Shown in pieces: positions 3,124 to 31,667 of a stretch of 64,000 nt of DNA; positions within the stretch are counted from its first letter, which is position 1, and each line of letters opens with the position of its first letter. The DNA comes from Rhodoferax sp. (GTDB lineage Bacteria > Pseudomonadota > Gammaproteobacteria > Burkholderiales > Burkholderiaceae_C). The stretch covers positions 12 to 64,011 of the forward strand of contig JANOXL010000242.1 in assembly GCA_031418395.1 (NCBI GenBank), in the 5' to 3' direction. Below the pieces are notes generated by a model. That model worked only from the letters and a program-made list of their open reading frames with translations. It was not told where the DNA came from and made no database searches. The position numbers and the translations under genes were made by a program.

Positions 3124-3615
3124 CTAAGCCCTGATTTTATTGACCAGCGCGGTGGTGGAATAACCGCTCACAAACGGTATCGCCAGCGCCCTGCCACCAT
3201 AAGCTTCAACGATTTTGGTTTCGGCCAGTTTCGCCATGTCGTAGTCGCCGCCCTTGACCAGCAAGTCGGGTCTCAGCTCGGCGATCAGCGCCAGCGGCGT
3301 GTCGTCGTCAAACCAGGTCACCATGCTGACAGACTGCAAGGCGGCAATGACCACCGCACGGTCCATGGCGTTGTTCAAAGGTCGACCCGGCCCTTTGCCT
3401 AAACGGCGCGCGGAGGCGTCCGAATTGAGGGCGACGACCAGACTGCCGCCTAGGGCGCGTGCCTGCTCCAGATAAACCACATGTCCCCGGTGCAAAACAT
3501 CGAACACACCGTTGGTAAAGACCAGGGGACGCACCAGTGTGCGGGCGCGCACCAAGGCGTCCACACGCAGGCATAACTTGCCCGTCATCGCGGTGTTTAA
3601 GTCTAAATCGTCCAT
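3124..3615 (-). CDS. hldC: D-glycero-beta-D-manno-heptose 1-phosphate adenylyltransferase (RfaE domain-II-like cytidylyltransferase)
   Basis: 163 aa. FTNGVFDVLHRGHVVYLEQAR contains the HxGH nucleotidyltransferase motif. C-terminal VKGGDY...GYSTT resembles RfaE domain II. Confidence 0.75.
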   Translation of the reverse strand: MDDLDLNTAMTGKLCLRVDALVRARTLVRPLVFTNGVFDVLHRGHVVYLEQARALGGSLVVALNSDASARRLGKGPGRPLNNAMDRAVVIAALQSVSMVTWFDDDTPLALIAELRPDLLVKGGDYDMAKLAETKIVEAYGGRALAIPFVSGYSTTALVNKIRA

Positions 3616-3694
3616 GCGCCAATGCTAGCAGGGCACTTATCCAGGCTTGGCTTTTGAATTTGCGTGGAAACCACGTCATCAAATCGCCTTTCGA

Positions 3695-3712
3695 TTGACA
3701 CAAGTCTGTCAC
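3695..3712 (+). promoter_or_regulatory. Pho-box-like direct repeat (TTGACAC-AAGT-CTGTCAC)
   Basis: 7-4-7 arrangement resembling the PhoB box CTGTCAT-N4-CTGTCAT (4/7 and 6/7 matches). Lies about 120 nt upstream of the metallophosphoesterase ORF. Confidence 0.25.
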
Positions 3713-3831
3713 CACGACAAAGGACACTCCGTTGGTTACAGACAAAAAAGCGATATGCAAACTCACTTTGCCAATCCCCTTATGACCCAAAATCCTTTTG
3801 AACGCTCTGACTTCATTGGGAAACGGTTGCA

Positions 3832-4776
3832 GTGGGCGTTTTGCAAGGCATTCGAAGTGGCCCGATGATGCGGGCCGCCTTTCGAGCGGCAGGAGAGTGG
3901 GCGAATGCCCCACACGGCAGGTCGGCGTCCGACTCTGCTGATAATTTGCAGCAAGCAGAGGATGACGCATCGAATCGACGGCGGATACGTGCCATCTTCA
4001 TTTCAGATCTTCACATCGGTACGCCCGGATTTCAGGCAGAGGCGCTGCTTGAGTTTCTGAGACTTCACCCAAGCGACTATCTTTATCTGGTCGGCGATAT
4101 CGTGGATGGCTGGCAACTCAGGCGCAGATGGTTCTGGCCACAATCCCACAACGATGTCATTCAGAAGTTGTTACGCCGCGCCCGCAAGGGTTGCCGCGTT
4201 GTGTTTGTTCCGGGAAATCACGACGAATTCGCCAGGGCGTTTGTCGGGCATCAGTTCGGTGGCATAGACGTCGTCAGCACGGCCGTCCATCAGACTCTGG
4301 ATGGCCGCTCGCTCTGGGTCACACACGGCGACCAGTTTGATGGCGTCGTGCAATGCGCCAAGTGGCTGGCCTACCTGGGTGACAACCTCTATGAGCTGAC
4401 GTTGCGCATCAATCGCCATCTGAACAATTTCCTCGCCCGGGTCGGAATGCCGTATTGGTCTCTATCGGCATTTCTTAAAAACAAGGTCAAACTGGCCTTG
4501 AGTTACGTGCAAGATTTTGAAGTGGCGGTTGCCCGTGAGGCTCAAAGACTCGGGCATGACGGCGTTATTTGTGGCCATATCCACCGCGCAGAAATGCGGG
4601 AAATCAACGGTGTCCTTTATTGCAACGACGGCGATTGGGTGGAAAGCCGTACAGCGCTGGTCGAACATATGGATGGACGTCTTGAGTTGATATTCTGGCG
4701 TCAAGAGGGTCAGGAAAAACCTCTGGAATCGTCAAAAGCGCCATTAGGTCAACCTCCTGTACCTGCCGCTCACTGA
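3832..4776 (+). CDS. LpxH/PlcP-like calcineurin-type metallophosphoesterase (start may be at internal Met 3865/3868)
   Basis: Metallophosphoesterase motif series: FISDLHIG, LVGDIVDGW, VPGNHDEF, GHIH. Confidence 0.8.
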   Translation: MGVLQGIRSGPMMRAAFRAAGEWANAPHGRSASDSADNLQQAEDDASNRRRIRAIFISDLHIGTPGFQAEALLEFLRLHPSDYLYLVGDIVDGWQLRRRWFWPQSHNDVIQKLLRRARKGCRVVFVPGNHDEFARAFVGHQFGGIDVVSTAVHQTLDGRSLWVTHGDQFDGVVQCAKWLAYLGDNLYELTLRINRHLNNFLARVGMPYWSLSAFLKNKVKLALSYVQDFEVAVAREAQRLGHDGVICGHIHRAEMREINGVLYCNDGDWVESRTALVEHMDGRLELIFWRQEGQEKPLESSKAPLGQPPVPAAH

Positions 4777-4786
4777 GCCTTCACTC

Positions 4787-5713
4787 TCAATGGGTTTCCT
4801 GAGGCAAATGCATCAGGCTTTGACCCATACGCACCTGCGCGCCCGCCTGCACTGTCTCGCTCAATTCAAAACCCTCCGGAGCCAGCACGATGATGGTCGA
4901 GCCGTGTTCAAACCAACCCAACTCCTCGCCCTTCGAGACGTTTGCGTTGCAGCGAATTTGATTCGGGCCAGGGTAGCTCAGGTGCAGCAGCACATTCACA
5001 AAGTGCAAGCGAATACTGGCCACGAGAATTGCCGCCACGGGCACCAGAGCAATAGGAAAATTACCCTTACCCAATCGGGCGTGTATAACCGCCCTCTCAT
5101 TTTTACAAAACAGACGCTCTACCCGTTTTAGTGCAATGGGATTCACGTTCCAGGTGTCGCCGTTGATGTAGTTGACTTGCTGGATGCTCAAGTCGTGCGG
5201 CGCGTGAAAGCGGTGGTACATCGCGGACGTCAGTCTCAAGGTGACATAACTACCCCCTTCAAATACCAATGCATCCGGCTGCGAACCCAACAGTTCCCCC
5301 AGTGTGTAGGGGAAACCTTTAGCCTGAAACACAGTACCGTTGTGAATGCGGCCATGCTCGCCAACAATACCGTCACTGGGACTCACCAGAACGCCAGGCC
5401 GAGGGTCAAGCGGTCGGGCGTCTGGTTTCAGTTTGCGCGTAAAGCAAGCGTGGAGGCTGTCAAAAGACGCTTGCTCTGCATCGGCCAAATCCAAGTCCAC
5501 AAATAGTCGCCAGACGAACATCAGAAAGCTGCACAACAGCGGACTGCGAATTTTGCTTAATCGGCCGACGGCAACCGTTAGCGCAATACGTGGAACCCGA
5601 TTGGTAAGCAGGAAGTTCAAGTCTTCGTTCTGGGCAAGCGAGCGAAGTGTTGTCAGAGTTTTTGGAATTTTCATCAACGCGTCACGCTGTTGCCATAAAA
5701 AGGGGAAACTCAA
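4787..5713 (-). CDS. Phosphatidylserine-decarboxylase-family (pyruvoyl) protein
   Basis: 308 aa. C-terminal FEHGSTIIVL matches the G-S-T self-cleavage motif of PSD proenzymes. Hydrophobic N-terminal segment. Confidence 0.7.
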   Translation of the reverse strand: MSFPFLWQQRDALMKIPKTLTTLRSLAQNEDLNFLLTNRVPRIALTVAVGRLSKIRSPLLCSFLMFVWRLFVDLDLADAEQASFDSLHACFTRKLKPDARPLDPRPGVLVSPSDGIVGEHGRIHNGTVFQAKGFPYTLGELLGSQPDALVFEGGSYVTLRLTSAMYHRFHAPHDLSIQQVNYINGDTWNVNPIALKRVERLFCKNERAVIHARLGKGNFPIALVPVAAILVASIRLHFVNVLLHLSYPGPNQIRCNANVSKGEELGWFEHGSTIIVLAPEGFELSETVQAGAQVRMGQSLMHLPQETH

Positions 5714-5727
5714 ACTCGGAGCAATGG

Positions 5728-7419
5728 ATGGCAGACCCCGTGAGCCTGAATATCACAAATTTCACAAACATTGAATTCGCTGTGGCCACCGCTGCTGCGG
5801 TGCTACTGACAGGTTGGATGCTGCGCAAAGGCAAACAGCGGCTTGAGTTGTCGCTCGCAAAACATCCGTCGCTGGCCGGACATTCGCGCTGGGCAAAAAG
5901 AATTGCCCGTCAAATCCCCGGGTACGACTACAACGAGCAAGAATTTTTTGGTTCAGACGCTGCGTCCGCCGATTTGATCGCGCTGCGAAAGACAAACTTC
6001 CACCGGCTGGCAGCAAGTTTTGCAAAGCGTTTTCCGAAGTCAAATGCGATGACCAGTGAGGCACGTGAAGGTCTTTCTGACTTGCAATTCACCGGCGCCT
6101 ACCGGGTTCCGTTTCAATACAGCCGATACCTTCGACAACACATCAGCGTCGGCGCTTTTCTCAAAGCAAGCGAAGGCGTGATGTTGGAGGATCTTGACGG
6201 CAATCGACTGTTTGACTTGGCAGGTTCGTATGGTGTCAACCTGTTTGGTTATGACTTCTACAAAGTCTGTATGGACGAAGGTGCCAACATGGTCCGGGAA
6301 CTCGGGCCGGTACTGGGTGCCTACCACCCTGCGGTGATCTACAACATCAAGCGCCTTAAAGAGATCTCGGGTCAGGACGAGGTGTCGTTCCATATGTCAG
6401 GCACAGAGGCGGTTATGCAAGCTGTCCGATTGGCCCGTTACCACACCCGAAGAAGCCACATCGTTCGTTTCTGTGGGGCCTATCACGGCTGGTGGGACGA
6501 TGTACAGCCCGGCCCAGGCAATCCTGCCAACGTCCGCGACACTTATACGCTTCGCGACATACATGCTCACTCCCTGCATGTTTTGCGGACACGCCGTGAT
6601 ATCGCCTGCGTACTCGTGAACCCGTTGCAGGCGCTGCATCCGAATGCCAGCGCGCCCGGCGATTCCGCTCTGCTCGACAGCAGCCGCCGAGCTGGCTTCG
6701 ACCGCGATGCGTACACCGCATGGCTGCTTGAATTGCGAAAGGTTTGCACAGACAACGGCATCGTGCTGATATTTGATGAGGTTTTTCTCGGGTTCCGATT
6801 GGCTCCCGGGGGGGCGCAGGCTTATTTTGGCGTTAAGGCGGACCTCGTCACCTACGGTAAGACTCTGGGCGGCGGATTGCCGGTAGGCGTCATTTGTGGC
6901 ACTTCTACTTTGATGCGCCGGTTCCGGCCTGACCGACCGGTAGACATCTGTTTTGCGCGGGGAACCTTCAACGCCCACCCGTACGTCATGGGCGCCATGA
7001 ATGCGTTTCTGAAACGTATGCAAACGCCGCATGTATTGGCGCTTTACGAGGGGCTTGACGCGCGCTGGAACCAGCGGGCGGCCCAACTCAATGACACACT
7101 CGCCAAAGAAAACCTGCCGGTACGGGTTGCGAATATGGCGACCGTCTGGACGATCACCTATACGCGCCCCTCCCGCTACAACTGGATGTTTCAGTTTTAT
7201 CTGCGCCTGCATGGTTTGGCCCTGAGCTGGGTGGGCAGCGGGCGAATGATTTTCAGCTTGAACTACACCGACGCTGATTTTGAAGAGGTCGCTCACAGAC
7301 TCTTGGCGGCGGCAAAACAAATGCAGGCAGAAGCCTGGTGGGAGAACCCGTCTGGACAGACAAATCGCCAGATCCGCCGCAGCATCTTTCTCGAAGCGCT
7401 AAAGCACCGCAAGCGATAG
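5728..7419 (+). CDS. Class-III (glutamate-1-semialdehyde aminomutase-like) PLP aminotransferase with about 130-aa N-terminal extension including a TM segment
   Basis: SGTEAVMQAVRLAR, FDEVFLGFR and YGKTLGGGLP (PLP-Lys region). Start moved to MADPV so it does not overlap the divergent PSD-like gene. Confidence 0.75.
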   Translation: MADPVSLNITNFTNIEFAVATAAAVLLTGWMLRKGKQRLELSLAKHPSLAGHSRWAKRIARQIPGYDYNEQEFFGSDAASADLIALRKTNFHRLAASFAKRFPKSNAMTSEAREGLSDLQFTGAYRVPFQYSRYLRQHISVGAFLKASEGVMLEDLDGNRLFDLAGSYGVNLFGYDFYKVCMDEGANMVRELGPVLGAYHPAVIYNIKRLKEISGQDEVSFHMSGTEAVMQAVRLARYHTRRSHIVRFCGAYHGWWDDVQPGPGNPANVRDTYTLRDIHAHSLHVLRTRRDIACVLVNPLQALHPNASAPGDSALLDSSRRAGFDRDAYTAWLLELRKVCTDNGIVLIFDEVFLGFRLAPGGAQAYFGVKADLVTYGKTLGGGLPVGVICGTSTLMRRFRPDRPVDICFARGTFNAHPYVMGAMNAFLKRMQTPHVLALYEGLDARWNQRAAQLNDTLAKENLPVRVANMATVWTITYTRPSRYNWMFQFYLRLHGLALSWVGSGRMIFSLNYTDADFEEVAHRLLAAAKQMQAEAWWENPSGQTNRQIRRSIFLEALKHRKR

Positions 7420-7435
7420 GATTTTGGACAAAGTT

Positions 7436-8044
7436 TCAACTCTGCCGCGCATGTGACATGGGATCCGTGATTTCACCGCGCATCAAATATAGCGGCGCTT
7501 TATAGTAAAGCTTGATATCGTGAAATGGATCGGTAATGATCTTTGTGCCCCAAACCAATGCTGTCATCAGATTCTGTTGAATGCCCAGCTGGACCATACG
7601 AAACAAGAGGCCACCTGCGCCCAAGCCCAACCAGACCATCGCGACGATGCGCACGTATTCCCCAAAGGAGTTGTAGCCCTGGAAAAGGCCAAGCACGGTG
7701 GGGTCAAGCCAGACCAGGATGGGTGAAAACGCCCAAATACTCATAAACACCATTTTGCGGCGCAGGTTGTACCCCACCTTGATGTCTTCCTTGTGGGCAT
7801 GGGTCGCCTGGTTGACATGGTCGTAGTCATGCGGCTCAAAAAAGAAATGCCCGGCTTGGCGCGTGGTCATCGAAACCAGCCAGGCCAACAATGCAGAGAC
7901 CACCGGGTCAATGAAGAGCCAGATGTAGGCCGCGACAAAACAAAGTGCGCTGACAAGATGCAGCGACTGGTTAATCCGGTTGTGGTGGTAATAACGATGA
8001 TCATCCCATCGCTGCGTCTGCAGTTCTTTGAAAAAGTCTTTCAC
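7436..8044 (-). CDS. His-rich integral membrane protein, tentatively Mpo1-like/DUF962
   Basis: Four or five hydrophobic segments. HHNRINQSLH fits the H-x-N-x-x-N-x-x-x-H motif that I recall for DUF962. Second His cluster HFFFEPHDYDH. GTG start at 8044 is preceded by AAAGGA. The ORF track extends to 8284. Confidence 0.5.
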   Translation of the reverse strand: MKDFFKELQTQRWDDHRYYHHNRINQSLHLVSALCFVAAYIWLFIDPVVSALLAWLVSMTTRQAGHFFFEPHDYDHVNQATHAHKEDIKVGYNLRRKMVFMSIWAFSPILVWLDPTVLGLFQGYNSFGEYVRIVAMVWLGLGAGGLLFRMVQLGIQQNLMTALVWGTKIITDPFHDIKLYYKAPLYLMRGEITDPMSHARQS

Positions 8045-8171
8045 GCTAGTTCCTTTTGCTGGACGGTTGGATCTGCACACCGCCCAACCCGTTTGGTCGG
8101 TGTGTCTGGATGGTGACGGGAATTGATGAAAGTTTGGTGACTTTTTAGCGTGTTTTCGATGGGCACCCCTT

Positions 8172-8189
8172 TTGTCATAAAACTGTTGC
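8172..8189 (+). promoter_or_regulatory. Pho-box-like direct repeat (TTGTCAT-AAAA-CTGTTGC)
   Basis: 6/7 and 4/7 matches to CTGTCAT with the canonical 4-nt A-rich spacer. Lies 22 nt upstream of the GT4 ATG. Confidence 0.3.
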
Positions 8190-8211
8190 ATCACACTTTC
8201 ATGATGTCGGC

Positions 8212-9450
8212 ATGAACGAAATGAACTATCCGTTTTTCGAGGTGGGCGAGTTGGATTCAACGAAGCAACCCTGGCGGGTTGCAATGGTCAGCGAAACCTA
8301 TCCGCCCGAAGTCAATGGTGTCGCGCGCACCTTGCAACAGGTGGTGCAAGGCTTGCTGGATCGGGGTCACGACCTTCAACTGGTAAGGCCTCGGCAGGGA
8401 AAAGATGAGCGACCCGCTTCATCGCCAAATTTCAACGAAGTCTTGACGAAAGGATTGACGATTCCCATGTACCGTCACCTTCGAATGGGATTGCCATCCA
8501 AACGCACGCTGATGAAACTTTGGCAGGATAAGAGGCCAGCCCTTGTCCACATTGCCACCGAGGGCCCTCTCGGGTGGTCAGCACTTCGAGCAGCTACCGA
8601 GCTCAGATTGCCCGTCGTTTCCGACTTCCGAACAAATTTTCAGGCTTACGCGCAGTATTACGGTATCAGTTGGCTGCAAGGATCCACGATGGCTTATCTG
8701 CGTAGCTTTCACAACCAATGCAACCAGACGATGGTGCCGACCGAAGCTCTTCTTCAACAACTCTCCGGAAACGGGTTCAAACGACTCAAGGTGGTCGCCC
8801 GCGGTGTCGATACACTGAACTTCGCACCGACCAAACGCAGTCAGGGACTCCGCGAGAAATGGGGCGTTTACGGCGATGACGTCGCGGTTTTGCACGTGGG
8901 TCGACTTGCAGCCGAGAAGAACCTGGGCGTCTTGATCCGGGCCTACGACAAGATTCGCTCAGTGCAGCCCCGTGCGCGTCTGGTTGTGGTGGGCGACGGA
9001 CCTATGCGCGCCGAGCTTCAGGCGCAGTTTCCTCAAGCCTACTTTGCCGGCTTTCAATCAGGCGAAGCGCTGGCAGCTCACTATGCCTCTGGCGACATGT
9101 TTTTGTTTCCCAGTTTGACCGAGACCTATGGCAACGTAACGCCGGAAGCGATGGCCAGTGGTTTGGGCGTCGTTGCCTTTGATGACGCTGCTGCCGGTGA
9201 ATTGATCGAACATCGCAGCAACGGACTGCTTGCACCAAAGACCGACTCTGCTGCATTCGTCACTCTGGCAGCCGAGCTGGCCCGCAACGCCACCCTACGG
9301 CGTCAATACGGTGACCAGGCCCGCTCAACCGTTTTAGCGCACGGATGGAGTGAGATCGTGCGCAATGTTGAAGACGTTTATGCCAACGCCATCAAGCAGA
9401 GTCCTTTCTCCCTCGCCCATGATATTCGGTCGAGGCTGTTGCCGGTTTGA
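8212..9450 (+). CDS. GT4-family (GT-B, group 1) glycosyltransferase
   Basis: N-terminal VAMVSETYPPEVNGVA. C-terminal FLFPSLTETYGNVTPEAMASG contains the E-x7-E motif. Confidence 0.85.
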   Translation: MNEMNYPFFEVGELDSTKQPWRVAMVSETYPPEVNGVARTLQQVVQGLLDRGHDLQLVRPRQGKDERPASSPNFNEVLTKGLTIPMYRHLRMGLPSKRTLMKLWQDKRPALVHIATEGPLGWSALRAATELRLPVVSDFRTNFQAYAQYYGISWLQGSTMAYLRSFHNQCNQTMVPTEALLQQLSGNGFKRLKVVARGVDTLNFAPTKRSQGLREKWGVYGDDVAVLHVGRLAAEKNLGVLIRAYDKIRSVQPRARLVVVGDGPMRAELQAQFPQAYFAGFQSGEALAAHYASGDMFLFPSLTETYGNVTPEAMASGLGVVAFDDAAAGELIEHRSNGLLAPKTDSAAFVTLAAELARNATLRRQYGDQARSTVLAHGWSEIVRNVEDVYANAIKQSPFSLAHDIRSRLLPV

Positions 9451-9689
9451 TTTAAGGAAGCGCGGTTTTATTCATCGGGGTCCATGGCGATTGGGTTGGG
9501 ATGGGCTTCGAAGCTTCAAATTCCACGGAGCAGCGCATCTTTGCATTTGCGAGTTGAAAAGCCCTCAACTTTAGGCCACATCACCGAGGCGTCATTCAAT
9601 TCGGCGTCACACAAGCGCCACAAAACTGACATCGCCCTTTCGCAAAGTCGGATGAAACTTGTCGGCAGTGGTATCAACCGTAGAAAGTT

Positions 9690-11012
9690 ATGAAAATTTC
9701 GGTGATTGGGGCTGGGTACGTTGGCTTGGTAACTGGTGCATGTCTTGCCGAGGTCGGCAATGACGTGACTTGTTTTGACACTGACAGCGCCAAAATCAGC
9801 GCATTGAAGAATGGTGAACTACCCATTTATGAGCCGGGTTTGCAGGAAATCGTGTTGAGAAACACAAAGGCTGGTCGCTTGCATTTCACTGACGACATTG
9901 AAAGCTCTACGCACTTCGGTACGGTGCAGTTCATCGCCGTCAACACACCGCCAGATGATGTCGGCGCGGCCGACCTGCGTCATGTCATGACGGCGGCAAG
10001 AAATATTGGCCAGTATATGAATGATTACAAAGTTGTAGTCAACAAAAGTACCGTTCCCGTTGGCACGGCAAACGCCGTCACCGCCACAATCAACGAGACC
10101 TTAGCCGCCCGTGGTGTCGAAATACCTTTCAACGTCGTTTCGAACCCGGAATTCCTGAAGGAAGGCGCTGCGATTGAAGATTTCATGCGGCCCAATCGCA
10201 TCATTCTGGGTTGTGACGACGAACAGGCCTCGCTCAATATGCGCGCCTTGTACGCACCGTTTCAACGCCATCATGACCGGGTGATCCTGATGGATGTCAA
10301 AAGCGCAGAGTTGACCAAATACGCTGCCAACGCCATGCTGGCAACCCGTATCAGTTTCATGAATGAACTTGCCAATTTGGCTGAAAAACTGGGTGCCGAC
10401 ATTGAAAACGTGCGTCGTGGCATTGGCAGCGACGCACGGATTGGTTACGACTTTCTTTACGCCGGCGCGGGATACGGTGGATCTTGTTTTCCCAAGGATG
10501 TCCGTGCACTGATTCACTTTGCCACGCAAGAGGCAGGCATTGACCTCAAGATTTTGGGTGCAGTCCAAGCCGCCAATACAGCGCAAAAACACGTGTTGGC
10601 CGAAAAAATCAAGTTGCGATTCGGGCCCAATCTGGCTGGCAAACATTTTGCGTTGTGGGGGCTTGCATTCAAAGCCAATACAGACGATATGCGAGAGGCC
10701 TCCAGCCTGACCTTGATTGATGACTTATTGCAAGCTGGTGCGACCGTGACGGCCTATGACCCCGTGGCAATGGAAAAAGCGACGGGGCTTCTGCGAGACA
10801 AAGTCGGCGTGACATTTGCGCAATCCCAAACAGCGGCGCTAGAAAACGCCACAGCGCTGGTGATTGTGACGGAATGGAAGGAATTCAGGAGTCCAAATTT
10901 TGACACCGTCATGTCCCAATTGAAGAGCCCGACGATCTTTGACGGACGCAACCTGTTTGATCCCAAGATGGTTCGAGGCCTGGGATTCGAATACTTCCCG
11001 ATTGGACGATAA
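9690..11012 (+). CDS. ugd: UDP-glucose 6-dehydrogenase
   Basis: [13 protein letters not shown] Rossmann start. Catalytic [10 protein letters not shown]. 440 aa. Confidence 0.93.
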
Positions 11013-11087
11013 CCCCGAAAAATAACCCCGCTTAGCGCTAACGGATCGGCATCACTCCATGCCTTGGCAGGCCACCTGCAAACAGGG

Positions 11088-11957
11088 CTAGGCAGCAACC
11101 TCAGCAACAGGGGTCATCGACAGCCCCGCCTGCTCGCGCCCCAGCTCCTTGCGGTATTTGTTCAAATCCTGCACGGTGCTGAACTCCCGCTCCAACAGCA
11201 GACTCAGGTTGTGCAGGATGCGGTCGACCACCTTGGTTTCCCACAACACGTCAAACTTGATCTGGCCATCGAGCCAGTGCTCCAGCCATTCAGGGTCTGG
11301 CAGGCGACTTTGGACGGTGTCACGCGGAAACAAGGCTTTGTTCACATGCAAGTTGGTCGGGTGCAGGGCCTGCGCCGTGCGCCGTGCGCTGGCCATCAAC
11401 ACGCCGACTTTGGCAAAGGCCATCTTGGCCTCAATGCCGTGCAGTCCGATAGCGCGACGCATGTATTTCAGGTAACAACCACCATGGCGGGCTTCGTCCT
11501 GAGACAAGGTGGTGTAAATCTGCTTGATGACAGGCTCAGTGTGCCACTGGCTGGCGCGACGGTACCAATGGTTGAGGCGGATTTCTCCGCAGAAATGCAT
11601 CATCAGGGTTTCCAGCGGTGGCGCGGGGTCAAACTCAAAACGCACTTCATGCAGCTCGGCCTCGGTGGGCACCAGGTCTGGGCGGAATTTTTTGAGGTAT
11701 TCCATCAACACCAGCGAATGTTTTTGCTCCTCAAAAAACCAGACTGACATGAAGGCGCAAAAATCGCTGTCGTGCCGGTTGTCGCGCAGAAACATCTCGG
11801 TCGCCGGAAGCGCCGCCCACTCCGTGATGGCGTTGAGTTTGATGGTCTGGGCATGCTCCTCGGTCAGCAAGGACGCGTCAAAACTCTCCCAAGGAATATC
11901 CTTGGTCATGTCCCAACGGACAGCTTCGAGTTGTTTGAACAGTTCCGGGTAGAGCAC
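11088..11957 (-). CDS. Ferritin-like diiron-carboxylate protein (acyl-ACP-desaturase-like)
   Basis: Two E-x-x-H ligand motifs in helices (FFEEQKH and SQDEARH). 289 aa soluble protein. Confidence 0.6.
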   Translation of the reverse strand: MLYPELFKQLEAVRWDMTKDIPWESFDASLLTEEHAQTIKLNAITEWAALPATEMFLRDNRHDSDFCAFMSVWFFEEQKHSLVLMEYLKKFRPDLVPTEAELHEVRFEFDPAPPLETLMMHFCGEIRLNHWYRRASQWHTEPVIKQIYTTLSQDEARHGGCYLKYMRRAIGLHGIEAKMAFAKVGVLMASARRTAQALHPTNLHVNKALFPRDTVQSRLPDPEWLEHWLDGQIKFDVLWETKVVDRILHNLSLLLEREFSTVQDLNKYRKELGREQAGLSMTPVAEVAA

Positions 11958-20661: not shown

Positions 20662-22206
20662 TCATTTTCCGTAGGCAGCTTGGTAACGAAGCCGGAAGAA
20701 TTTTGCTTCGTCGACCCTTCCCAGCATTTCCGAAGTGGTAATTAGCCTTTCGACCACTCGTGCTTCAGGGGAGAAATGTAACAACGCGTGGGCCTGGGCA
20801 TTGAAATAGGCGGCATTTACGGGCGTCAATTGCGCGGTGGTCAACTCGGCAAACCGAAACTGGTTCTGGAAAAACCAGGTGTTACGTATTTTTTCAAGGG
20901 TGTTCGTTTTGTAGGCTTGAGCCCTTTGAGATGGCGGCAAGTAGATTTGGCTAACCTTGTAATAGTCCCAAGCGACGGCTGCCAAAGCCATCATCAATAC
21001 AATCGCTGAGGCTCGAATCACATGTGTCAATCGCATCCCACCCAGCAGAAGGGTGCTACCGACGCGAGGTTCGCCTGCCATTTTGTTGGGCGCAGAGACC
21101 TTGGTCTCTTGCGATGTCGTGAACAAAATCATGAGACACATCACAGTGGCGATCTGAAATGGTCCATACCAAAGCGGGTACTCGACCAAGCTGTGTAACC
21201 CAATCATCGCCAGGACACCCCACGCAAGCTGACGCTGAGGATGATTCTCGCGCCAGGGATGCAAGCGCTTCAGTACCCACAGAACCCCGCCGCAAAAAAG
21301 AAGTGATACCGGTATTCCAAGCTCCACCGCGAGATGCAGCGGCAAATTGTGCGCATTGTCCAAAATTTCACAAAATCTTGGGCCGTCATATAGCGTTATG
21401 AAGTGTGCGTAGTCCAGTTCACCCCATCCCCAACCAAACCAAGGTTTCAAGAGCACTAAGTGCAGTACGTTTTGCCACAAAACAATACGGCTAGAGCAAT
21501 TGTGCTCAGTGTCGGCCAAACGCCCAAAAATGCCCCCAAACGCCCCGTCTCGACTAACCAACACTGGCAAAAGAACGCTAGCTACCACGTAGGTCAACCA
21601 AGCGGTAGTCACCACTTGCACAACGGAGCGGTCGCGCCAGTTGCGCCAAGCCAGCATCAGGCCGCCGACTAAAAGTAGCTGTACAAGCCCGGTTCGGGAA
21701 GATGACGCCGCGTTGCCTAAGCCGAGTGTCCCGGCTGACGCCAACCCTCCCCAAAACCACATCATTCTCTGTTGATCATCTAAATTGTCGCGAGAAAATT
21801 TCGGGTTAGCCTTTGCCCTTGCCAGCCAAATTATTGCAACCAGGCCGATCATGGTCAGCGTTGCAAATTGATTGCGTTGGCGCAGATTGGCAAAAGCTTC
21901 ACCAATTTGGGTCGTATTGATGAACCCCGCCGCGAGCTTGCTATATCCGAAAAACTGGATTAGAGCGATTCCACAACTGGCAAGTGCAGCCAACCACCAG
22001 GCAGTGGCAAGCGTTTCAACAGCTCTAGTTTTAGTGGATTCCAAGCTTTGAAAGCTGAAACTACACACAAAAAGTAGGCCAGCGAAACACATCCAGCTAA
22101 CCAAAAGGGGCGTAGCAGCCGGAGCAGGGCCGGTCGCAGCAGGATTTAGCCACGGCAGAGTCAGCAATACTAGTGCAGCGCCCGCAATCATTTGGCACCG
22201 ACGCAC
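20662..22206 (-). CDS. O-antigen-ligase/PglL-family polytopic membrane protein (candidate protein O-oligosaccharyltransferase), paralog 2
   Basis: 514 aa, more than 10 TM segments. Wzy_C-like loop (NAHNLPLHLAVELGIP). Soluble C-terminal domain. Adjacent to pilA. Confidence 0.7.
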   Translation of the reverse strand: MRRCQMIAGAALVLLTLPWLNPAATGPAPAATPLLVSWMCFAGLLFVCSFSFQSLESTKTRAVETLATAWWLAALASCGIALIQFFGYSKLAAGFINTTQIGEAFANLRQRNQFATLTMIGLVAIIWLARAKANPKFSRDNLDDQQRMMWFWGGLASAGTLGLGNAASSSRTGLVQLLLVGGLMLAWRNWRDRSVVQVVTTAWLTYVVASVLLPVLVSRDGAFGGIFGRLADTEHNCSSRIVLWQNVLHLVLLKPWFGWGWGELDYAHFITLYDGPRFCEILDNAHNLPLHLAVELGIPVSLLFCGGVLWVLKRLHPWRENHPQRQLAWGVLAMIGLHSLVEYPLWYGPFQIATVMCLMILFTTSQETKVSAPNKMAGEPRVGSTLLLGGMRLTHVIRASAIVLMMALAAVAWDYYKVSQIYLPPSQRAQAYKTNTLEKIRNTWFFQNQFRFAELTTAQLTPVNAAYFNAQAHALLHFSPEARVVERLITTSEMLGRVDEAKFFRLRYQAAYGK

Positions 22207-22236
22207 TTTGCTTCAGTCAACTTTGGGGCAATTGAT

Positions 22237-23931
22237 TCACGGCGCTTTTGCTGGCCATGGCACGATTGCCATCTGCGGACTAGTGATCGCCGCCTTTTGC
22301 CAACGCAGTGCCATAGACCCGCAAAGTTTTTCATTGGTAACCGAGCACATGACCTCAAGCCAGACTGCTGCTTCTTTAGGCTGCCCACTCATCGCCAAAT
22401 TCGCCGCGAGTTTGTAGAACGAAAGGACACTAGGAATTGCAATTACCAAACCGCGCATCCAATTCAACTCTTCTTCTGTTACGTCTTTGCTTGGCCTGTT
22501 CCGGGCCAAGACAATGACATCCCGCAATTGAGTCAAGACGACAACATCAGGCGCGGTTTTTGGATAGTTACTGGGAATTCCCCGGTCTTCAAAGCGCAAA
22601 CCATAGAAGCTATTTTCCGCCTTGAAATAGTCACTGATCGTGACAGTCATTGCCAACCCCGCAGACACCAGAACTGCACCATTGACCCAGCTTTTCACCA
22701 AAAAAGCCGGCCTAAAGCCGAGACTAGTGTTGAGCACGCCCAACAGAAGGCCCGCGGGAAGCAATAAGTGAGCGTAATGCAAGGGAAATTCCAGCATCGA
22801 ATGGACGCCAAGAATCAACATTGCAGCCATTATGGCGAATTGGTCAAACTGAATTGCCAATTTTCCGGCCTGCCAAATCCACCAACCCAAAAATCCAACA
22901 ATCGCCAGCCCAATCGGATAACCATTCCAAAGAATCAAGTCCAGCACCATATTGTGAGACTGCGCAAATATTCCTCCTGCTGGTGGGTAACTCGCAACCA
23001 ACATAAAGTGGGCTTGCGAAATTTGCCCCCAGCCAAACCCGAACCAGGGCTGACGTGACGCGGCCTCCAGAAACATGATCCAAGCTGTTGTTCGTGCAGG
23101 GTCGTTTAGTCCTCTAAATTGAGAGGGAAGGTCGTCCGGGAAGAACAAAATCAGGTCGATATACGGTATTGTGATTGAGACGATCACGAAGTAAGCGGCT
23201 AATCCCAACGCTACTTTCAGGAAATGCGGGCTGTACAACTTATTCCGCAGCAAAATTAGCCCTGTCGCCAACAAGAATATATTGAGCCAAGCCGTTCGTG
23301 ACCCCGTCAAGGCGACTCCAAACAAGACAATGGCAGCCAGCGCGGCTGCCACCCATGCCGTAAGATTTTGACGAAAATGTGCCCATGCAGTCCCGATAAC
23401 ACCGAGCAACAAGAGTGACCCAAGTACGTTCGGTTGGGTAAGATTTGCATAATACCGATTTGGTAAAGTGCTGCTCAATATCCAAATGGTGTCGGATCTA
23501 AACCCTAACCACTGGAAGATCTGTAAACCCGTTGACACAACTGCAGCACAAGTAAATGCCATAAAAACAAAATCTGCACACTGGCCTGGAGAATCAAGTT
23601 CCCATTTGGCGCCGACCTGAATGGCAAGTGCAAACCCGAGCAAATACAGGCTGTGCATCCAGACCATACCAAACTGAGTTGATTGTCCGCACAAAAACTG
23701 CACTATTGGAATGGCGCTCAGGCCAAAAATCAGTAAGGCCAACCAATGCAGAGGATGCGGCGCAGTTTGCCTCAGTAGGACTCGTGCCGAAACCAGCAAC
23801 AGAACACATGCCACCCAAGCTTCTTTATGAAAAGACAACCAAGGTGGGGAATTGTTGGGCAATAACCAGCCCAACGACAAGATCACAGCCCCCAGCATTA
23901 GCCACAACGGTGTAAATACCTTGATCTGCAT
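22237..23931 (-). CDS. O-antigen-ligase/PglL-family polytopic membrane protein (candidate pilin O-glycosyltransferase), paralog 1
   Basis: 564 aa. N-terminal LGWLLPNNSPPWLSFHKE and loop AQSHNMVLDLILWNGYPIG are typical of the PglL/PilO class. Immediately downstream of pilA. Confidence 0.7.
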   Translation of the reverse strand: MQIKVFTPLWLMLGAVILSLGWLLPNNSPPWLSFHKEAWVACVLLLVSARVLLRQTAPHPLHWLALLIFGLSAIPIVQFLCGQSTQFGMVWMHSLYLLGFALAIQVGAKWELDSPGQCADFVFMAFTCAAVVSTGLQIFQWLGFRSDTIWILSSTLPNRYYANLTQPNVLGSLLLLGVIGTAWAHFRQNLTAWVAAALAAIVLFGVALTGSRTAWLNIFLLATGLILLRNKLYSPHFLKVALGLAAYFVIVSITIPYIDLILFFPDDLPSQFRGLNDPARTTAWIMFLEAASRQPWFGFGWGQISQAHFMLVASYPPAGGIFAQSHNMVLDLILWNGYPIGLAIVGFLGWWIWQAGKLAIQFDQFAIMAAMLILGVHSMLEFPLHYAHLLLPAGLLLGVLNTSLGFRPAFLVKSWVNGAVLVSAGLAMTVTISDYFKAENSFYGLRFEDRGIPSNYPKTAPDVVVLTQLRDVIVLARNRPSKDVTEEELNWMRGLVIAIPSVLSFYKLAANLAMSGQPKEAAVWLEVMCSVTNEKLCGSMALRWQKAAITSPQMAIVPWPAKAP

Positions 23932-30055: not shown

Positions 30056-30110
30056 GAAATTCCCGAAGTTAAGTAACCTGGTGGCCCCGACAAGCTGCCG
30101 GCTCGGGTGG

Positions 30111-30785: not shown

Positions 30786-30833
30786 GACCGACTCCTGTTC
30801 CTGAAATTTGTAATTCGAAAAATTAAACTGAAA

Positions 30834-31619: not shown

Positions 31620-31667
31620 TGTTTGTTTTGCTTTTTCACCAATTCTTAAGCGATCAGTGTTTCCAAC

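What the first reader, a model, noticed from the sequence alone, without database searches (positions are those of the whole stretch)
3695..11012. PlcP-like phosphoesterase, GT4 glycosyltransferase and Ugd: a candidate phosphate-sparing glycolipid (MGDG/GADG-type) remodelling cluster
Seen. The cluster holds three genes: an LpxH/PlcP-like metallophosphoesterase (3832-4776), a GT4 enzyme with the E-x7-E motif (8212-9450), and UDP-glucose 6-dehydrogenase immediately after it (9690-11012). Both the phosphoesterase and the GT4 gene are preceded by Pho-box-like 7-4-7 direct repeats (3695-3712 and 8172-8189).

Established knowledge, recalled and not searched. In Sinorhizobium and in SAR11/roseobacters a metallophosphoesterase phospholipase C (PlcP) releases diacylglycerol under P limitation. 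An adjacent GT4 enzyme (Agt) then makes glucosyl- and glucuronosyl-diacylglycerol. The latter needs UDP-glucuronate, the Ugd product.

Inference. This cluster may do the same in a betaproteobacterium. Alternatives are an LpxH paralog and a glycosyltransferase acting on lipid A/LPS or exopolysaccharide.
Basis: partly seen in the sequence, partly recalled or inferred. Interest (0 to 1): 0.7.

Follow-up and report, generated by a model that had tools for sequence, protein, structure and literature searches.

The report
Phosphate-starvation glycolipid remodelling gene cluster
This is a set of genes that most likely lets a freshwater/soil betaproteobacterium swap phosphate-containing membrane lipids for a sugar-acid lipid when phosphate is scarce, a known strategy, but here it carries three extra conserved genes of unknown role that may add a new step.

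Summary
All evidence is computational.

- **Phosphoesterase (3868-4776).** It is 52.6% identical to the validated P. aeruginosa PlcP (PA3219). It fails both LpxH models (35-39 bits, cut-offs 190/134).
- **GT4 (8212-9450).** It is an orthologue of Agt2 (PA0842), the validated UDP-glucuronate-dependent glucuronosyl-diacylglycerol (GADG) synthase. Identity is 47.9%, and the split from Agt1-type enzymes has 100/100 bootstrap support.
- **Ugd** follows the GT4 gene.
- **Pho boxes.** A Pho-box matrix was trained only on canonical olsB-plcP promoters of relatives. Its four best hits in the 64-kb window lie upstream of plcP, the aminotransferase, agt2 and ugd.

- a phosphatidylserine-decarboxylase paralogue;
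- a membrane-anchored aminotransferase, nearest to beta-ketoacyl aminotransferase domains;
- a small His-rich DUF962-like membrane protein.

Two or more of these three genes lie within 10 kb of plcP in 15 other loci. The trio also recurs in Sphingomonadales, there with a methyltransferase. I found no paper on it.

**Verdict:** this is a known PlcP-Agt pathway in a new variant. The trio may tailor GADG through the keto-GADG reported in Burkholderia.

The parts
3673..3712 (+). Pho-box-like array upstream of plcP. It has four units with 11-bp phasing: ACGTCAT-caaa-TCGCCTT-tcga-TTGACAC-aagt-CTGTCAC. A conserved -10-like ACACTC follows about 11 nt later.
   Evidence: The array is conserved in three lineages (alignment A1). 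The 3-unit matrix score is 17.7, fourth best in the window. It has the same layout as the phoX promoter of L003.
3868..4776 (+). plcP: an LpxH-like metallophosphoesterase, predicted to be an intracellular phospholipase C that releases diacylglycerol. The ORF opens at 3832; the likely start is ATG 3865 or 3868.
   Evidence: It is 52.6% identical to PA3219 with E 2e-94, and 74% identical to the Rhodoferax gene in an olsB-plcP-agt1-ppk operon. The DxH, GD, GNHD, HGD and GHxH motifs are all kept. LpxH models score 35-39 bits, below the cut-offs. The best fold match is the LpxH-lipid X complex 5k8k.
4787..5674 (-). Phosphatidylserine-decarboxylase paralogue, a pyruvoyl proenzyme with its catalytic residues intact. 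It is convergent with plcP, with a 10-bp gap.
   Evidence: Pfam PS_Dcarbxylase E 1e-57, and TIGR00163 at 164 bits against a cut-off of 112. The SPSDG, YHRFHAP and HGST motifs are invariant (A4). L033 also carries a second, E. coli-type Psd that is 31% identical.
5668..5696 (+). Pho-box array in the 53-bp psd/aminotransferase divergent region (TTTTCAT-caac-GCGTCAC-gctg-TTGCCAT). It overlaps the psd start codon and is followed by CATAAAAA and a GGAG ribosome-binding site.
   Evidence: It is the best 3-unit matrix hit in the whole window at 23.8. It is conserved in L006, L005, L059 and L088 (A2). Analogous hits occur in Sphingomonas L094 and L096.
5728..7419 (+). Membrane-anchored class-III aminotransferase. 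It has an N-terminal TM helix followed by RKGKQR, and the YGKTLGGGLP lysine motif.
   Evidence: Pfam Aminotran_3. The best solved relative is the MycA aminotransferase domain 6kfm at E 2e-44, ahead of GSA aminomutases at 1e-35. The nearest non-orthologous hits in plasmids are NRPS/PKS aminotransferase domains.
7436..8044 (-). DUF962/Mpo1-like small membrane protein of 202 aa, helical and rich in invariant His, Asp and Glu. It is a putative metal-dependent oxidase. It starts at GTG with an AAGGA ribosome-binding site.
   Evidence: Pfam Mpo1-like scores 23.3 bits against a gathering score of 24. A source names one homologue DUF962. H16, H20, H21, H29, H66 and H175 are invariant (A3). The AF2 model has pLDDT 85 and no PDB fold match. 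The family is small, with 101 representatives at E<=1e-30.
8126..8143 (-). Pho-box-like pair (AAGTCAC-caaa-CTTTCAT) upstream of the DUF962-like gene, in the divergent DUF/agt2 region.
   Evidence: The 2-unit matrix score is 14.6, among the top 4 in the window. The element TGAAAGTTTGGTGAC is conserved in L005 and L006. A hit of 21.5 lies upstream of the DUF gene in L006.
8172..8213 (+). agt2 promoter region.
   Evidence: The site is identical in L006 and near-identical in L005, with the same 6-nt spacing to the ATG. The 3-unit matrix score is 17.8, third in the window. Hits lie upstream of the GT4 orthologue in 6 other loci.
8212..9450 (+). agt2: a GT4 glycosyltransferase and orthologue of P. 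aeruginosa Agt2 (PA0842). It is predicted to be a UDP-glucuronate:diacylglycerol glucuronosyltransferase, that is, a GADG synthase.
   Evidence: It is 47.9% identical to PA0842 with E 2e-119, against 32.6% to Agt1 PA3218. The Agt2/Agt1 split has 100/100 bootstrap support. Its NCBIfam hit profile matches that of PA0842. The E-x7-E motif is ETYGNVTPE.
9604..9632 (+). Pho-box array upstream of ugd (GCGTCAC-acaa-GCGCCAC-aaaa-CTGACAT).
   Evidence: It is the second best 3-unit matrix hit in the window at 19.9. Hits lie upstream of ugd in 6 other module loci.
9690..11012 (+). ugd: UDP-glucose 6-dehydrogenase, which supplies UDP-glucuronate.
   Evidence: It has three UDPG_MGDP_dh domains and scores 440 bits on TIGR03026 against a cut-off of 190. 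It lies next to the Agt2-type GT4 in L006, L064, L075, L077, L079, L080, L084, L085 and L088.

Best explanation
The region 3673-11012 is a PhoB-controlled membrane-lipid renovation island in a Comamonadaceae-like betaproteobacterium.

Core pathway (confidence about 0.8):
- Under phosphate starvation PhoB activates separate promoters for plcP, the aminotransferase, the DUF962-like gene, agt2 and ugd. This is inferred from the Pho-box arrays.
- PlcP is a cytoplasmic LpxH-like metallophosphoesterase. It cleaves the phospho-head group from glycerophospholipids and leaves diacylglycerol. This is inferred from orthology to PA3219 and SMc00171-type enzymes.
- Ugd oxidises UDP-glucose to UDP-glucuronate.
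- The Agt2-type GT4 transfers glucuronate to diacylglycerol. The product is anionic, phosphorus-free GADG, which replaces phosphatidylglycerol and cardiolipin. This is inferred from orthology to PA0842.

Trio (confidence about 0.3):
- The three intervening genes belong to the same regulon and act on membrane lipid head groups.
- My preferred mechanism is that the His-rich DUF962-like protein oxidises GADG to keto-GADG. That lipid has been seen in phosphate-starved B. cenocepacia.
- The membrane-anchored aminotransferase, which resembles beta-ketoacyl aminotransferases, would then convert keto-GADG to an amino-deoxy-glucuronosyl lipid. This would be a zwitterionic stand-in for phosphatidylethanolamine.
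- The role of the Psd paralogue is unresolved.
For: PlcP:
- 52.6% identical to PA3219 and about 50% to a Sinorhizobium orthologue, with all catalytic motifs kept.
- 74% identical to genes in olsB-like/plcP/agt1/ppk/sixA operons that lie beside phoX, phoD or ppx.
- Sub-threshold on LpxH models, as PA3219 is. The best fold match is LpxH-lipid X.
- The 80 genome loci all come from different assemblies, so no second copy per genome appears at this similarity.

Agt2 and Ugd:
- 47.9% identity to PA0842 and a 100/100 bootstrap split from Agt1-type enzymes.
- PA0842 makes GADG and was assayed with UDP-glucuronate (PMC8528852). The identity of that gene was checked through its neighbours cerN-plcH-plcR.
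- Ugd lies next to the Agt2-type GT4 in 9 other loci, in either orientation.

Pho control:
- A matrix trained only on 62 foreign olsB-plcP promoters places the top four window hits upstream of plcP, the aminotransferase, agt2 and ugd. Those promoters are themselves enriched for Pho boxes: 19 of 62 have 3 or fewer mismatches against 0.2 expected.
- The result replicates in 15 other loci.
- The same matrix picks the PA0842 promoter, for which PMC8528852 reports a Pho box, as the only site in that locus reaching the scan threshold.
- Motifs are conserved in the orthologous intergenic regions.
- There are no sigma-70 consensus promoters above chance, as expected for activator-dependent promoters.

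Trio:
- Two or more trio genes lie within 10 kb of plcP in 15 other loci, in varied arrangements.
- The same psd(-)/AT(+)/DUF(-) layout occurs in three Sphingomonadales genomes, with a co-transcribed UbiE-like methyltransferase.
- PPK2 lies immediately downstream of psd on the same strand, with a 4-bp overlap in L049.
- The aminotransferase is nearest to the MycA aminotransferase domain.
- KGADG is reported in B. cenocepacia with no enzyme named in that preprint.
Against: - No experiment stands behind any step in this organism.
- plcP and agt2 are not an operon here. They are 3.4 kb apart with genes on alternating strands.
- The same matrix did not find the published PA3219 Pho box.
- The donor specificity of the GT4 is inferred from 48% identity and from Ugd adjacency only.
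- Trio and GADG: Agt2-Ugd occurs without the trio (L079, P. aeruginosa, Ralstonia).
- The trio also occurs without Agt2 nearby (L030, L050, Sphingomonadales), so a direct substrate link to GADG is not required.
- A pyruvoyl decarboxylase needs an alpha-amino acid, and no aminated pyranosyl uronate provides one.
- The DUF scores just below Pfam's Mpo1 threshold and has no fold match.
Confidence: 0.75

Rival explanations
1. The phosphoesterase is an LpxH paralogue working on lipid A precursors. The GT4 and Ugd decorate lipid A, LPS or an exopolysaccharide, for example through uronic-acid or aminoarabinose chemistry.
For: - Automatic annotation calls the whole family UDP-2,3-diacylglucosamine diphosphatase.
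- LpxH is the best solved fold match.
- An LPS heptose gene (HldE domain II) lies divergently upstream.
- Ugd also feeds LPS pathways in many bacteria (general knowledge).
Against: - LpxH models score 35-39 bits against cut-offs of 134 and 190, the same behaviour as validated PlcP PA3219. E. coli LpxH scores 364-389.
- phmmer finds no LpxH chain in the PDB.
- The hldE-like neighbour is not conserved in orthologous modules.
- The GT4 is orthologous to a diacylglycerol glucuronosyltransferase. Its best family models are lipid-glycosylating enzymes, not LPS or EPS transferases.
- There is no ArnA/ArnB/ArnT-type gene in the cluster.
Confidence: 0.04
2. The genes are true PlcP, Agt2 and Ugd orthologues, but the motif arrays are not PhoB sites. 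The cluster would then answer to another signal, or be constitutive, and the link to phosphate sparing would be only by analogy.
For: - The sites are degenerate against the E. coli consensus, which gives no hit at 3 or fewer mismatches.
- The agt2 site has a weak second unit.
- No phoB, phoR or pst gene lies in the window to anchor the regulon.
- The matrix missed the published PA3219 box.
Against: - The matrix was trained on foreign promoters of operons that also hold ppk and sixA and lie beside phoX, phoD or ppx.
- The top four of about 128,000 positions fall in the right intergenic regions and on the right strand.
- The result replicates in 15 loci.
- The matrix picks the Pho-box promoter that PMC8528852 reports for PA0842.
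- The 11-bp phasing and the roughly 10-nt gap to a -10-like element match the architecture of PhoB-dependent promoters.
Confidence: 0.1
3. This rival concerns the trio only. The Psd paralogue, aminotransferase and DUF962-like protein do not touch GADG. There are two versions.
- (a) A head-group conversion route that turns a lipid-bound alpha-hydroxy acid into an alpha-keto acid, then an alpha-amino acid (serine-type), then an amine. This would be a lipid-linked copy of the phosphoserine pathway followed by decarboxylation.
- (b) A route that dismantles aminophospholipids, from PS to PE to an aldehyde, during phosphate stress.
For: - The Psd paralogue keeps all catalytic residues of a serine-lipid decarboxylase.
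- The trio is separable from Agt2-Ugd (L030, L050, Sphingomonadales).
- Class-III transaminases handle terminal amines and aldehydes, and some handle alpha-keto acids; D-phenylglycine aminotransferase is among the hits.
- Mpo1 enzymes act on 2-hydroxy acids (Pfam description).
- The methyltransferase in Sphingomonadales fits an amine product.
Against: - No enzyme that would attach a glycerate or serine head group is conserved nearby.
- A phospholipid-based product would not save phosphorus, yet the genes carry Pho-box arrays and travel with plcP, ppk2, agt2 and ugd.
- No such lipid is reported in these taxa.
Confidence: 0.25

Closest known systems
Pseudomonas aeruginosa PlcP (PA3219), Agt1 (PA3218) and Agt2 (PA0842) lipid renovation pathway (Jones et al. 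2021, PMC8528852)
   Same: - The phosphoesterase family is the same (52.6% identity).
- The Agt2-type GADG synthase is the same (47.9% identity, same clade at 100/100).
- There are Pho-box promoters, with agt2 transcribed on its own from its own Pho box.
- The expected product is GADG made from UDP-glucuronate.
   Different: - In P. aeruginosa plcP is operonic with agt1, and agt2 sits elsewhere next to plcH and plcR. No ugd lies beside it in the 6 kb on either side.
- Here plcP lacks agt1 and olsB, and agt2 is clustered with ugd and with plcP.
- Three extra Pho-boxed genes lie between them.
- P. aeruginosa has only a short, bona fide Mpo1-like gene (PA3216) two genes from plcP-agt1.
Burkholderia cenocepacia plcP-agt-dagK operon BCAL2364-2366 (bioRxiv 10.1101/2023.05.30.542800)
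   Same: - It is betaproteobacterial, PlcP-dependent and induced by Pi depletion.
- It yields MGDG, GADG and ketoglucuronosyl-DAG.
   Different: - It is a three-gene operon with a diacylglycerol kinase.
- No psd, aminotransferase, DUF or ugd is described with it.
Canonical Comamonadaceae operon olsB-like/plcP/agt1-like/ppk/sixA
   Same: - plcP is orthologous (68-78% identity).
- Pho boxes lie upstream.
- It occurs in the same bacterial family.
   Different: - The window has none of olsB-like, agt1-like, ppk or sixA anywhere in its 64 kb.
- Its plcP has moved next to the trio-agt2-ugd module.
Sinorhizobium meliloti PlcP (SMc00171), Agrobacterium Agt (Atu2297) and SAR11 PlcP-Agt (PMC4796936)
   Same: - The logic is the same: an intracellular PLC gives diacylglycerol, and a GT4 makes glycosyl- or glucuronosyl-DAG under Pho control.
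- A Sinorhizobium orthologue is about 50% identical to the window PlcP.
   Different: - Those systems use one promiscuous Agt that makes both MGDG and GADG.
- The six plcP neighbourhood types described for marine bacteria do not include psd, an aminotransferase or a DUF962 gene.
ArnA/ArnB chemistry, recalled from general knowledge (UDP-glucuronate to a 4-keto sugar to 4-amino-4-deoxy-arabinose), and the MycA aminotransferase domain (6kfm)
   Same: - They offer a chemical analogy for the proposed trio steps: oxidation of a glucuronosyl unit to a keto form, then transamination.
- The MycA domain aminates a carbonyl beta to a carboxyl derivative, which is what 4-keto-glucuronate is.
   Different: - The enzyme families differ: there is no SDR/formyltransferase ArnA and no DegT-type ArnB.
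- The substrate would be a membrane glycolipid, not a nucleotide sugar or an acyl-carrier thioester.
- The aminotransferase here is free-standing and membrane-anchored.

Membership tests
PlcP (LpxH-like intracellular phospholipase C) | Calcineurin-type metallophosphoesterase motifs (DxH, GD, GNHD/E, H, GHxH) | tested here: met
   D47/H49, G76-D77, G116-N117-H-D119, H153-G-D155 and G236-H237-x-H239 are invariant with PA3219, Rhodoferax, Sinorhizobium and E. coli LpxH (A6). Pfam Metallophos hit.
PlcP (LpxH-like intracellular phospholipase C) | Closer to experimentally validated PlcP than to LpxH | tested here: met
   52.6% identical to PA3219 with E 2e-94, against 24% to E. coli LpxH. PA3219 itself is only 46-47% identical to the S. 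meliloti and Phaeobacter PlcPs (PMC8528852). The motifs GDIVDGWxLRRxWYWPQ and YWSLSAxLKxKVK are shared with PlcPs and absent from LpxH.
PlcP (LpxH-like intracellular phospholipase C) | Genomic linkage to a surrogate-lipid synthase (agt, btaAB or olsB) | tested here: met
   agt2 lies 3.4 kb downstream in the window. Orthologues at 68-78% identity sit in the order olsB-like, plcP, agt1-like, and in L001 the coordinates abut or overlap by 4 bp.
PlcP (LpxH-like intracellular phospholipase C) | Pho-box promoter and induction by Pi starvation | tested here: inconclusive
   A conserved four-unit array at 3673-3712 scores 17.7 on the matrix. Induction itself cannot be tested with these tools.
PlcP (LpxH-like intracellular phospholipase C) | Hydrolyses glycerophospholipids to diacylglycerol | not testable with these tools
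   This needs an enzyme assay or mutant lipidomics.
LpxH (UDP-2,3-diacylglucosamine diphosphatase) | Reaches the curated cut-off of the equivalog models TIGR01854 or NF003743 | tested here: not met
   The scores are 35.3 and 39.0 bits against cut-offs of 190.35 and 134. The control, E. coli LpxH, scores 388.9 and 364.3. There are no PDB sequence hits at E<=0.01.
Agt2-type glucuronosyl-diacylglycerol synthase (PA0842) | GT4 (GT-B) two-domain architecture with the E-x7-E motif | tested here: met
   Glyco_transf_4 and Glycos_transf_1 hits. The motif is ETYGNVTPE in the translation.
Agt2-type glucuronosyl-diacylglycerol synthase (PA0842) | Orthology to PA0842 rather than to Agt1 (PA3218) | tested here: met
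   47.9% against 32.6% identity. The NJ split between Agt2-type and Agt1-type has 100/100 bootstrap support. The NCBIfam hit profile matches that of PA0842. The PA0842 locus was identified through cerN-plcH-plcR.
Agt2-type glucuronosyl-diacylglycerol synthase (PA0842) | Uses UDP-glucuronate and diacylglycerol and forms GADG | not testable with these tools
   The only indirect evidence is that ugd lies beside this GT4 type in the window and 9 other loci, in either orientation.
UDP-glucose 6-dehydrogenase (Ugd) | Three-domain nucleotide-sugar dehydrogenase above the curated cut-off | tested here: met
   TIGR03026 scores 439.9 bits against a cut-off of 189.8. The species-specific equivalogs TuaD and AglM are below their cut-offs. 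Three Pfam domains are present.
Phosphatidylserine decarboxylase (pyruvoyl, PF02666) | Family model above the cut-off, with the Asp/His/Ser (GST) self-cleavage and catalytic motifs | tested here: met
   TIGR00163 scores 163.7 against 111.75. SPSDG, YHRFHAP and EHGST are invariant in four orthologues. Whether it acts on PS or is the housekeeping enzyme was not settled; L033 carries a second, E. coli-type Psd.
Mpo1/DUF962 (Fe(II) 2-hydroxy-acid dioxygenase family, PF06127) | Reaches Pfam's gathering score | tested here: not met
   The score is 23.3 bits against a gathering score of 24, over residues 13-70 only. A few homologues carry a precomputed PF06127 hit. It is 30% identical over 60 aa to the bona fide Mpo1-like PA3216. 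I treat it as a related small family, not as a member.
Beta-ketoacyl aminotransferase (AMT) domains of lipopeptide synthetases (MycA type) | Embedded in an NRPS/PKS module and acting on an ACP-bound beta-ketoacyl chain | tested here: not met
   The protein is free-standing, with an N-terminal TM helix and no carrier or condensation domains. The resemblance is by sequence only: 6kfm at E 2e-44 and about 32% identity to Ralstonia NRPS/PKS aminotransferase domains.

The most novel reading that the evidence does not exclude
The Psd paralogue, the membrane-anchored aminotransferase and the DUF962-like protein would form an undescribed, PhoB-controlled pathway that tailors glucuronosyl lipids.

- The DUF962-like metalloprotein would oxidise GADG to the keto-GADG seen in B. 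cenocepacia. It may also explain the unassigned glycolipid of P. aeruginosa, which is 2 Da lighter than GADG.
- The aminotransferase would convert keto-GADG to an amino-deoxy-glucuronosyl diacylglycerol. This would be a zwitterionic, phosphorus-free mimic of phosphatidylethanolamine.
- In the most daring version the Psd paralogue supplies phosphatidylethanolamine as the lipid amino donor. The amine would then be handed from the phospholipid being scrapped to the glycolipid replacing it.
- In Sphingomonadales the same trio, with a methyltransferase, would act on glucuronosyl-ceramide.
Probability: 0.25. Interest if true: 0.75.

Novelty: new variant of a known kind. Interest (0 to 1): 0.5.

Why it matters
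The PlcP-Agt route is the main known way in which heterotrophic bacteria cut their phosphorus quota. It also changes sensitivity to polymyxin, phage and predators (PMC8528852, PMC9457565).

This window adds little to the core pathway. It does show that abundant freshwater and soil Comamonadaceae carry it, including Limnohabitans, Rhodoferax, Polaromonas, Acidovorax and Hydrogenophaga. It also shows that the Agt1 and Agt2 division seen in P. aeruginosa holds in this family.

What could matter is the trio. It is conserved, carries Pho boxes and is absent from the literature I searched. It sits between the enzyme that makes diacylglycerol and the enzyme that makes GADG.

Two observations remain open. 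No enzyme is named for the keto-GADG reported in Burkholderia, and P. aeruginosa has an unassigned glycolipid. The trio provides named candidate genes and cultured hosts to test both. It may also reveal an amine-bearing glycolipid that balances the charge of anionic GADG.

Tried and rejected
- **E. coli Pho-box consensus scan.** CTGTCATN4CTGTCAT with up to 3 mismatches gave 0 hits against 4 expected, so it was useless for these degenerate sites. I replaced it with a clade-trained matrix.
- **PDB sequence search with the phosphoesterase.** No hit.
- **Fold search with the DUF model.** Nothing below E = 1.
- **Reference sequences from the genome collection.** The single scan returned only close Comamonadaceae and Nitrosomonas relatives. 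I found P. aeruginosa references instead, in chromosomal fragments filed as plasmids in PLSDB. No B. cenocepacia, S. meliloti 1021 or Agrobacterium reference could be fetched.
- **Literature searches for the trio.** Terms covered psd, aminotransferase, PlcP, DUF962, Mpo1, phosphate, amino-glycolipid and KGADG. They found no description.
- **Sigma-70 promoter and terminator scan.** Nothing above chance.
- **First GT4 tree script.** It timed out and was rerun with a faster method.
- **Source organism.** The listing of cluster members gave no name for it.
- **Psd as a decarboxylase of an aminated pyranosyl uronate.** Considered and rejected, because the chemistry does not fit a pyruvoyl enzyme.
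- **The trio Psd as the housekeeping Psd.** Considered and rejected, because L033 has a second, E. coli-type copy.
- **The ferritin-like gene 11088-11957 as part of the module.** Considered and rejected. No homologue was found in any of the 88 related loci searched by tblastn, and it has no Pho-box hit.

Full report
**What is in the region.**
Six ORFs on alternating strands fill 3.8-11 kb:
- a metallophosphoesterase, ORF 3832-4776(+);
- a phosphatidylserine-decarboxylase homologue, 4787-5674(-);
- a class-III aminotransferase with an N-terminal membrane helix, 5728-7419(+);
- a 202-aa helical membrane protein, 7436-8044(-);
- a GT4 glycosyltransferase, 8212-9450(+);
- UDP-glucose 6-dehydrogenase, 9690-11012(+).

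The flanks are an RND pump and a stand-alone HldE domain II gene upstream. Downstream lie a ferritin-like gene, a GST and purB. The best relatives are Comamonadaceae such as Rhodoferax, Acidovorax, Limnohabitans and Hydrogenophaga. The module has 52-57% G+C, against 58-61% in the flanks.

**The phosphoesterase is a PlcP, not an LpxH.**
- The curated LpxH models score it at 35-39 bits against cut-offs of 190 and 134. In the same search E. coli LpxH scores 364-389. The experimentally validated P. aeruginosa PlcP (PA3219) scores 45-55, so it fails them too.
- I found PA3219 and its neighbour Agt1 on a chromosomal fragment filed as a plasmid. The window protein is 52.6% identical to PA3219 (E 2e-94). 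That is more than PA3219 shares with the S. meliloti and Phaeobacter PlcPs, at 46-47% (PMC8528852).
- All metal-binding motifs are kept. Several motifs are shared with PlcPs but not with LpxH.
- An AlphaFold model (pLDDT 73) has the phosphoesterase core with a long helical insertion. It matches the LpxH-lipid X complex best.
- In relatives the 68-78% identical orthologue lies in an operon of olsB-like, plcP, agt1-like, ppk and sixA, beside phoX, phoD or ppx.
- All 80 genome loci come from different assemblies. The window gene is therefore the organism's plcP orthologue in a new neighbourhood, not an extra paralogue.

**The GT4 is Agt2-type.**
- P. aeruginosa has two such enzymes. Agt1 (PA3218) makes glucosyl-DAG. 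Agt2 (PA0842) makes glucuronosyl-DAG and was assayed with UDP-glucuronate (PMC8528852).
- I identified PA0842 on another mis-filed record by its neighbours cerN, plcH and plcR.
- The window GT4 is 47.9% identical to Agt2 over 378 residues and 32.6% to Agt1. The GT4 that follows plcP in the canonical Comamonadaceae operon shows the reverse pattern, at 47.3% to Agt1 and 34% to Agt2.
- A 36-sequence NJ tree separates the two types in 100 of 100 bootstraps.
- Ugd lies next to the Agt2-type gene in the window and in nine other loci, co-directional or convergent. That is what one expects if UDP-glucuronate is its donor.
- No agt1-like, olsB-like or ppk gene exists anywhere in the 64 kb.

**Pho boxes.**
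The canonical olsB-plcP promoters of 62 relatives, however, are strongly enriched for such boxes. Nineteen have 3 or fewer mismatches, against 0.2 in shuffles.
- I built an 11-bp unit matrix from those promoters only, with consensus TTGTCATGAAA. I then scanned the whole window on both strands for three phased units.
- The four best positions are 5668-5696 (23.8, upstream of the aminotransferase), 9604-9632 (19.9, ugd), 8185-8213 (17.8, agt2) and 3673-3701 (17.7, plcP). All are on the strand of the gene that follows.
- The best hit outside the cluster scores 14.1, and the best hit in shuffled windows averages 14.3.
- A two-unit hit on the minus strand (8126-8143) faces the DUF gene.
- In 15 other loci that carry the module, hits of 16 or more fall upstream of agt2 (6), ugd (6), plcP (5), olsB (5) and the aminotransferase (4).
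- In the P. aeruginosa locus only one site reaches the scan threshold, directly upstream of PA0842. The published work reports a Pho box there and four-fold induction.
- The motifs are conserved in otherwise diverged intergenic regions.
It is followed by a conserved nATnAT element exactly six bases before the ATG in three lineages.
- I conclude that PhoB control is well supported in silico but untested.

- They are not filler. Two or more of them lie within 10 kb of plcP in 15 other loci, in several arrangements. In ten of those loci they sit with the Agt2-type GT4.
- The same psd(-)/aminotransferase(+)/DUF(-) layout occurs in Sphingomonas and Croceibacterium. There a UbiE-like methyltransferase is co-transcribed with the DUF gene, the flanks differ, and no plcP or agt lies nearby.
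- In some Comamonadaceae, ppk2 lies immediately downstream of psd on the same strand, with a 4-bp overlap in L049.
- Psd homologue: it passes the curated model and keeps the Asp/His/Gly-Ser-Thr machinery. One locus also has a second, E. coli-type Psd, so this one is an accessory copy.
- Aminotransferase: its nearest solved relative is the domain of mycosubtilin synthase that aminates a beta-ketoacyl chain (E 2e-44). That is ahead of the glutamate-semialdehyde aminomutases. Its nearest non-orthologous hits in plasmids are NRPS/PKS aminotransferase domains. Its helix followed by RKGKQR places the catalytic domain on the cytoplasmic face (read from the sequence).
- DUF: it has many invariant His, Asp and Glu residues. 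It scores just under Pfam's Mpo1/DUF962 threshold. It folds confidently but matches no solved structure. It belongs to a small family, with 101 of 1.84 billion representatives at E<=1e-30.
- Four literature searches found nothing on this trio. The six plcP neighbourhood types described for marine bacteria do not include it.

**Mechanism.**
- The core is shown by orthology and inferred for function. PhoB switches on plcP, ugd and agt2. PlcP strips phospho-head groups to give diacylglycerol. Ugd makes UDP-glucuronate. Agt2 makes anionic glucuronosyl-DAG.
- For the trio I commit, at about 0.3, to head-group tailoring of that glycolipid.
- The lead comes from the literature. Phosphate-starved B. 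cenocepacia makes a ketoglucuronosyl-DAG alongside MGDG and GADG (neutral loss 191). P. aeruginosa has an unassigned glycolipid 2 Da lighter than GADG. No enzyme is named for either in the papers read.
- A metal-dependent membrane oxidase transcribed divergently from agt2, plus a transaminase related to enzymes that aminate a carbonyl beta to a carboxyl group, would fit a path from GADG to keto-GADG to amino-GADG.
- Glucuronosyl-ceramide is the hallmark lipid of Sphingomonadales (own knowledge). That could explain why the trio is found there too.
- Weak points: the Psd paralogue has no obvious substrate in this scheme, and the trio and Agt2-Ugd can each occur without the other.
- The main rival for the trio is a lipid-linked route from an alpha-hydroxy acid through an alpha-keto acid and a serine-type head group to an amine, or a route that dismantles aminophospholipids.

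**Comparison and verdict.**
- The PlcP-Agt pathway is established in alpha-, gamma- and betaproteobacteria (PMC4796936, PMC8528852, bioRxiv 10.1101/2023.05.30.542800).
- The variant features are three: plcP detached from olsB, agt1 and ppk; physical linkage of agt2 with ugd; and the embedded trio with its Pho boxes.
- Interest is moderate overall. It would be high if the trio proves to make a new amine-bearing glycolipid.

Noticed in passing
window 3755-3868: A 37-codon upstream ORF ends in a TGA that overlaps the plcP start (ATGATG at 3865-3870). It lies in about 110 nt that the orthologous promoters of L004/L005 and L006/L007 lack. It may be a leader peptide or a remnant.
   Followed up: partly
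window 8199-8214; L005 ~4888-4902; L006 ~11003-11020: The agt2 ATG lies exactly 6 nt after a conserved nATnAT element in three lineages, and there is no Shine-Dalgarno sequence. The agt2 mRNA may be leaderless.
   Followed up: partly
window 4001-11000 versus its flanks: The module has 52-57% G+C, against 58-61% on either side. Its flanking genes differ between genomes (window, L004, L006, L059, L084). This suggests the module moves as an island.
   Followed up: partly
L049 16663-17595(-); L064 1803-2783(-): A polyphosphate kinase 2 gene lies immediately downstream of the Psd paralogue on the same strand, with a 4-bp overlap in L049. It has its own Pho-box hit. This is another phosphate-metabolism link for the trio.
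   Followed up: partly
L089 9465-9782(-) (P. aeruginosa PA3216): A bona fide Mpo1-like/DUF962 gene (143 bits) lies two genes downstream of plcP-agt1 in P. aeruginosa. That organism also makes an unassigned glycolipid 2 Da lighter than GADG.
   Followed up: no
L027 15237-16502(-); L054 2229-3479(-); L068; L085: An MFS transporter gene of about 420 aa recurs beside the module in four loci. It may move a lipid or a head group.
   Followed up: no
L089, L090, L092 (PLSDB records NZ_CP042268.1, NZ_CP104127.1, NZ_CP131792.1): Records filed as plasmids carry ordinary chromosomal regions. Examples are the P. aeruginosa regions PA3216-PA3227 and PA0842-PA0845, and a 3.5-Mb Sinorhizobium replicon. They were useful here as references, but they are a data-quality caveat.
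   Followed up: no
window 20662-23931(-), 24585-27005(-), 27803-34466(-): The window holds two tandem Wzy_C/PglL-like ligase paralogues and a PilB-like ATPase with a GAF domain. A signalling block follows: CHASE2-cyclase, FHA, PP2C and a CHASE2-Ser/Thr kinase. A similar FHA-cyclase and kinase pair directly flanks the module in L006.
   Followed up: no
window 3124-3615(-): This is a stand-alone HldE domain II gene (heptose-1-phosphate adenylyltransferase). It only just passes its model cut-off (182.8 against 181.5 bits). It is divergent from plcP and is not conserved next to the module elsewhere.
   Followed up: no
window 11088-11957(-): This 289-aa protein has a weak match to acyl-ACP desaturase (di-iron) and no NCBIfam match. 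It lies downstream of a GST gene on the same strand. tblastn found no homologue in the 88 related loci and it has no Pho-box hit, so I do not count it as part of the module.
   Followed up: partly
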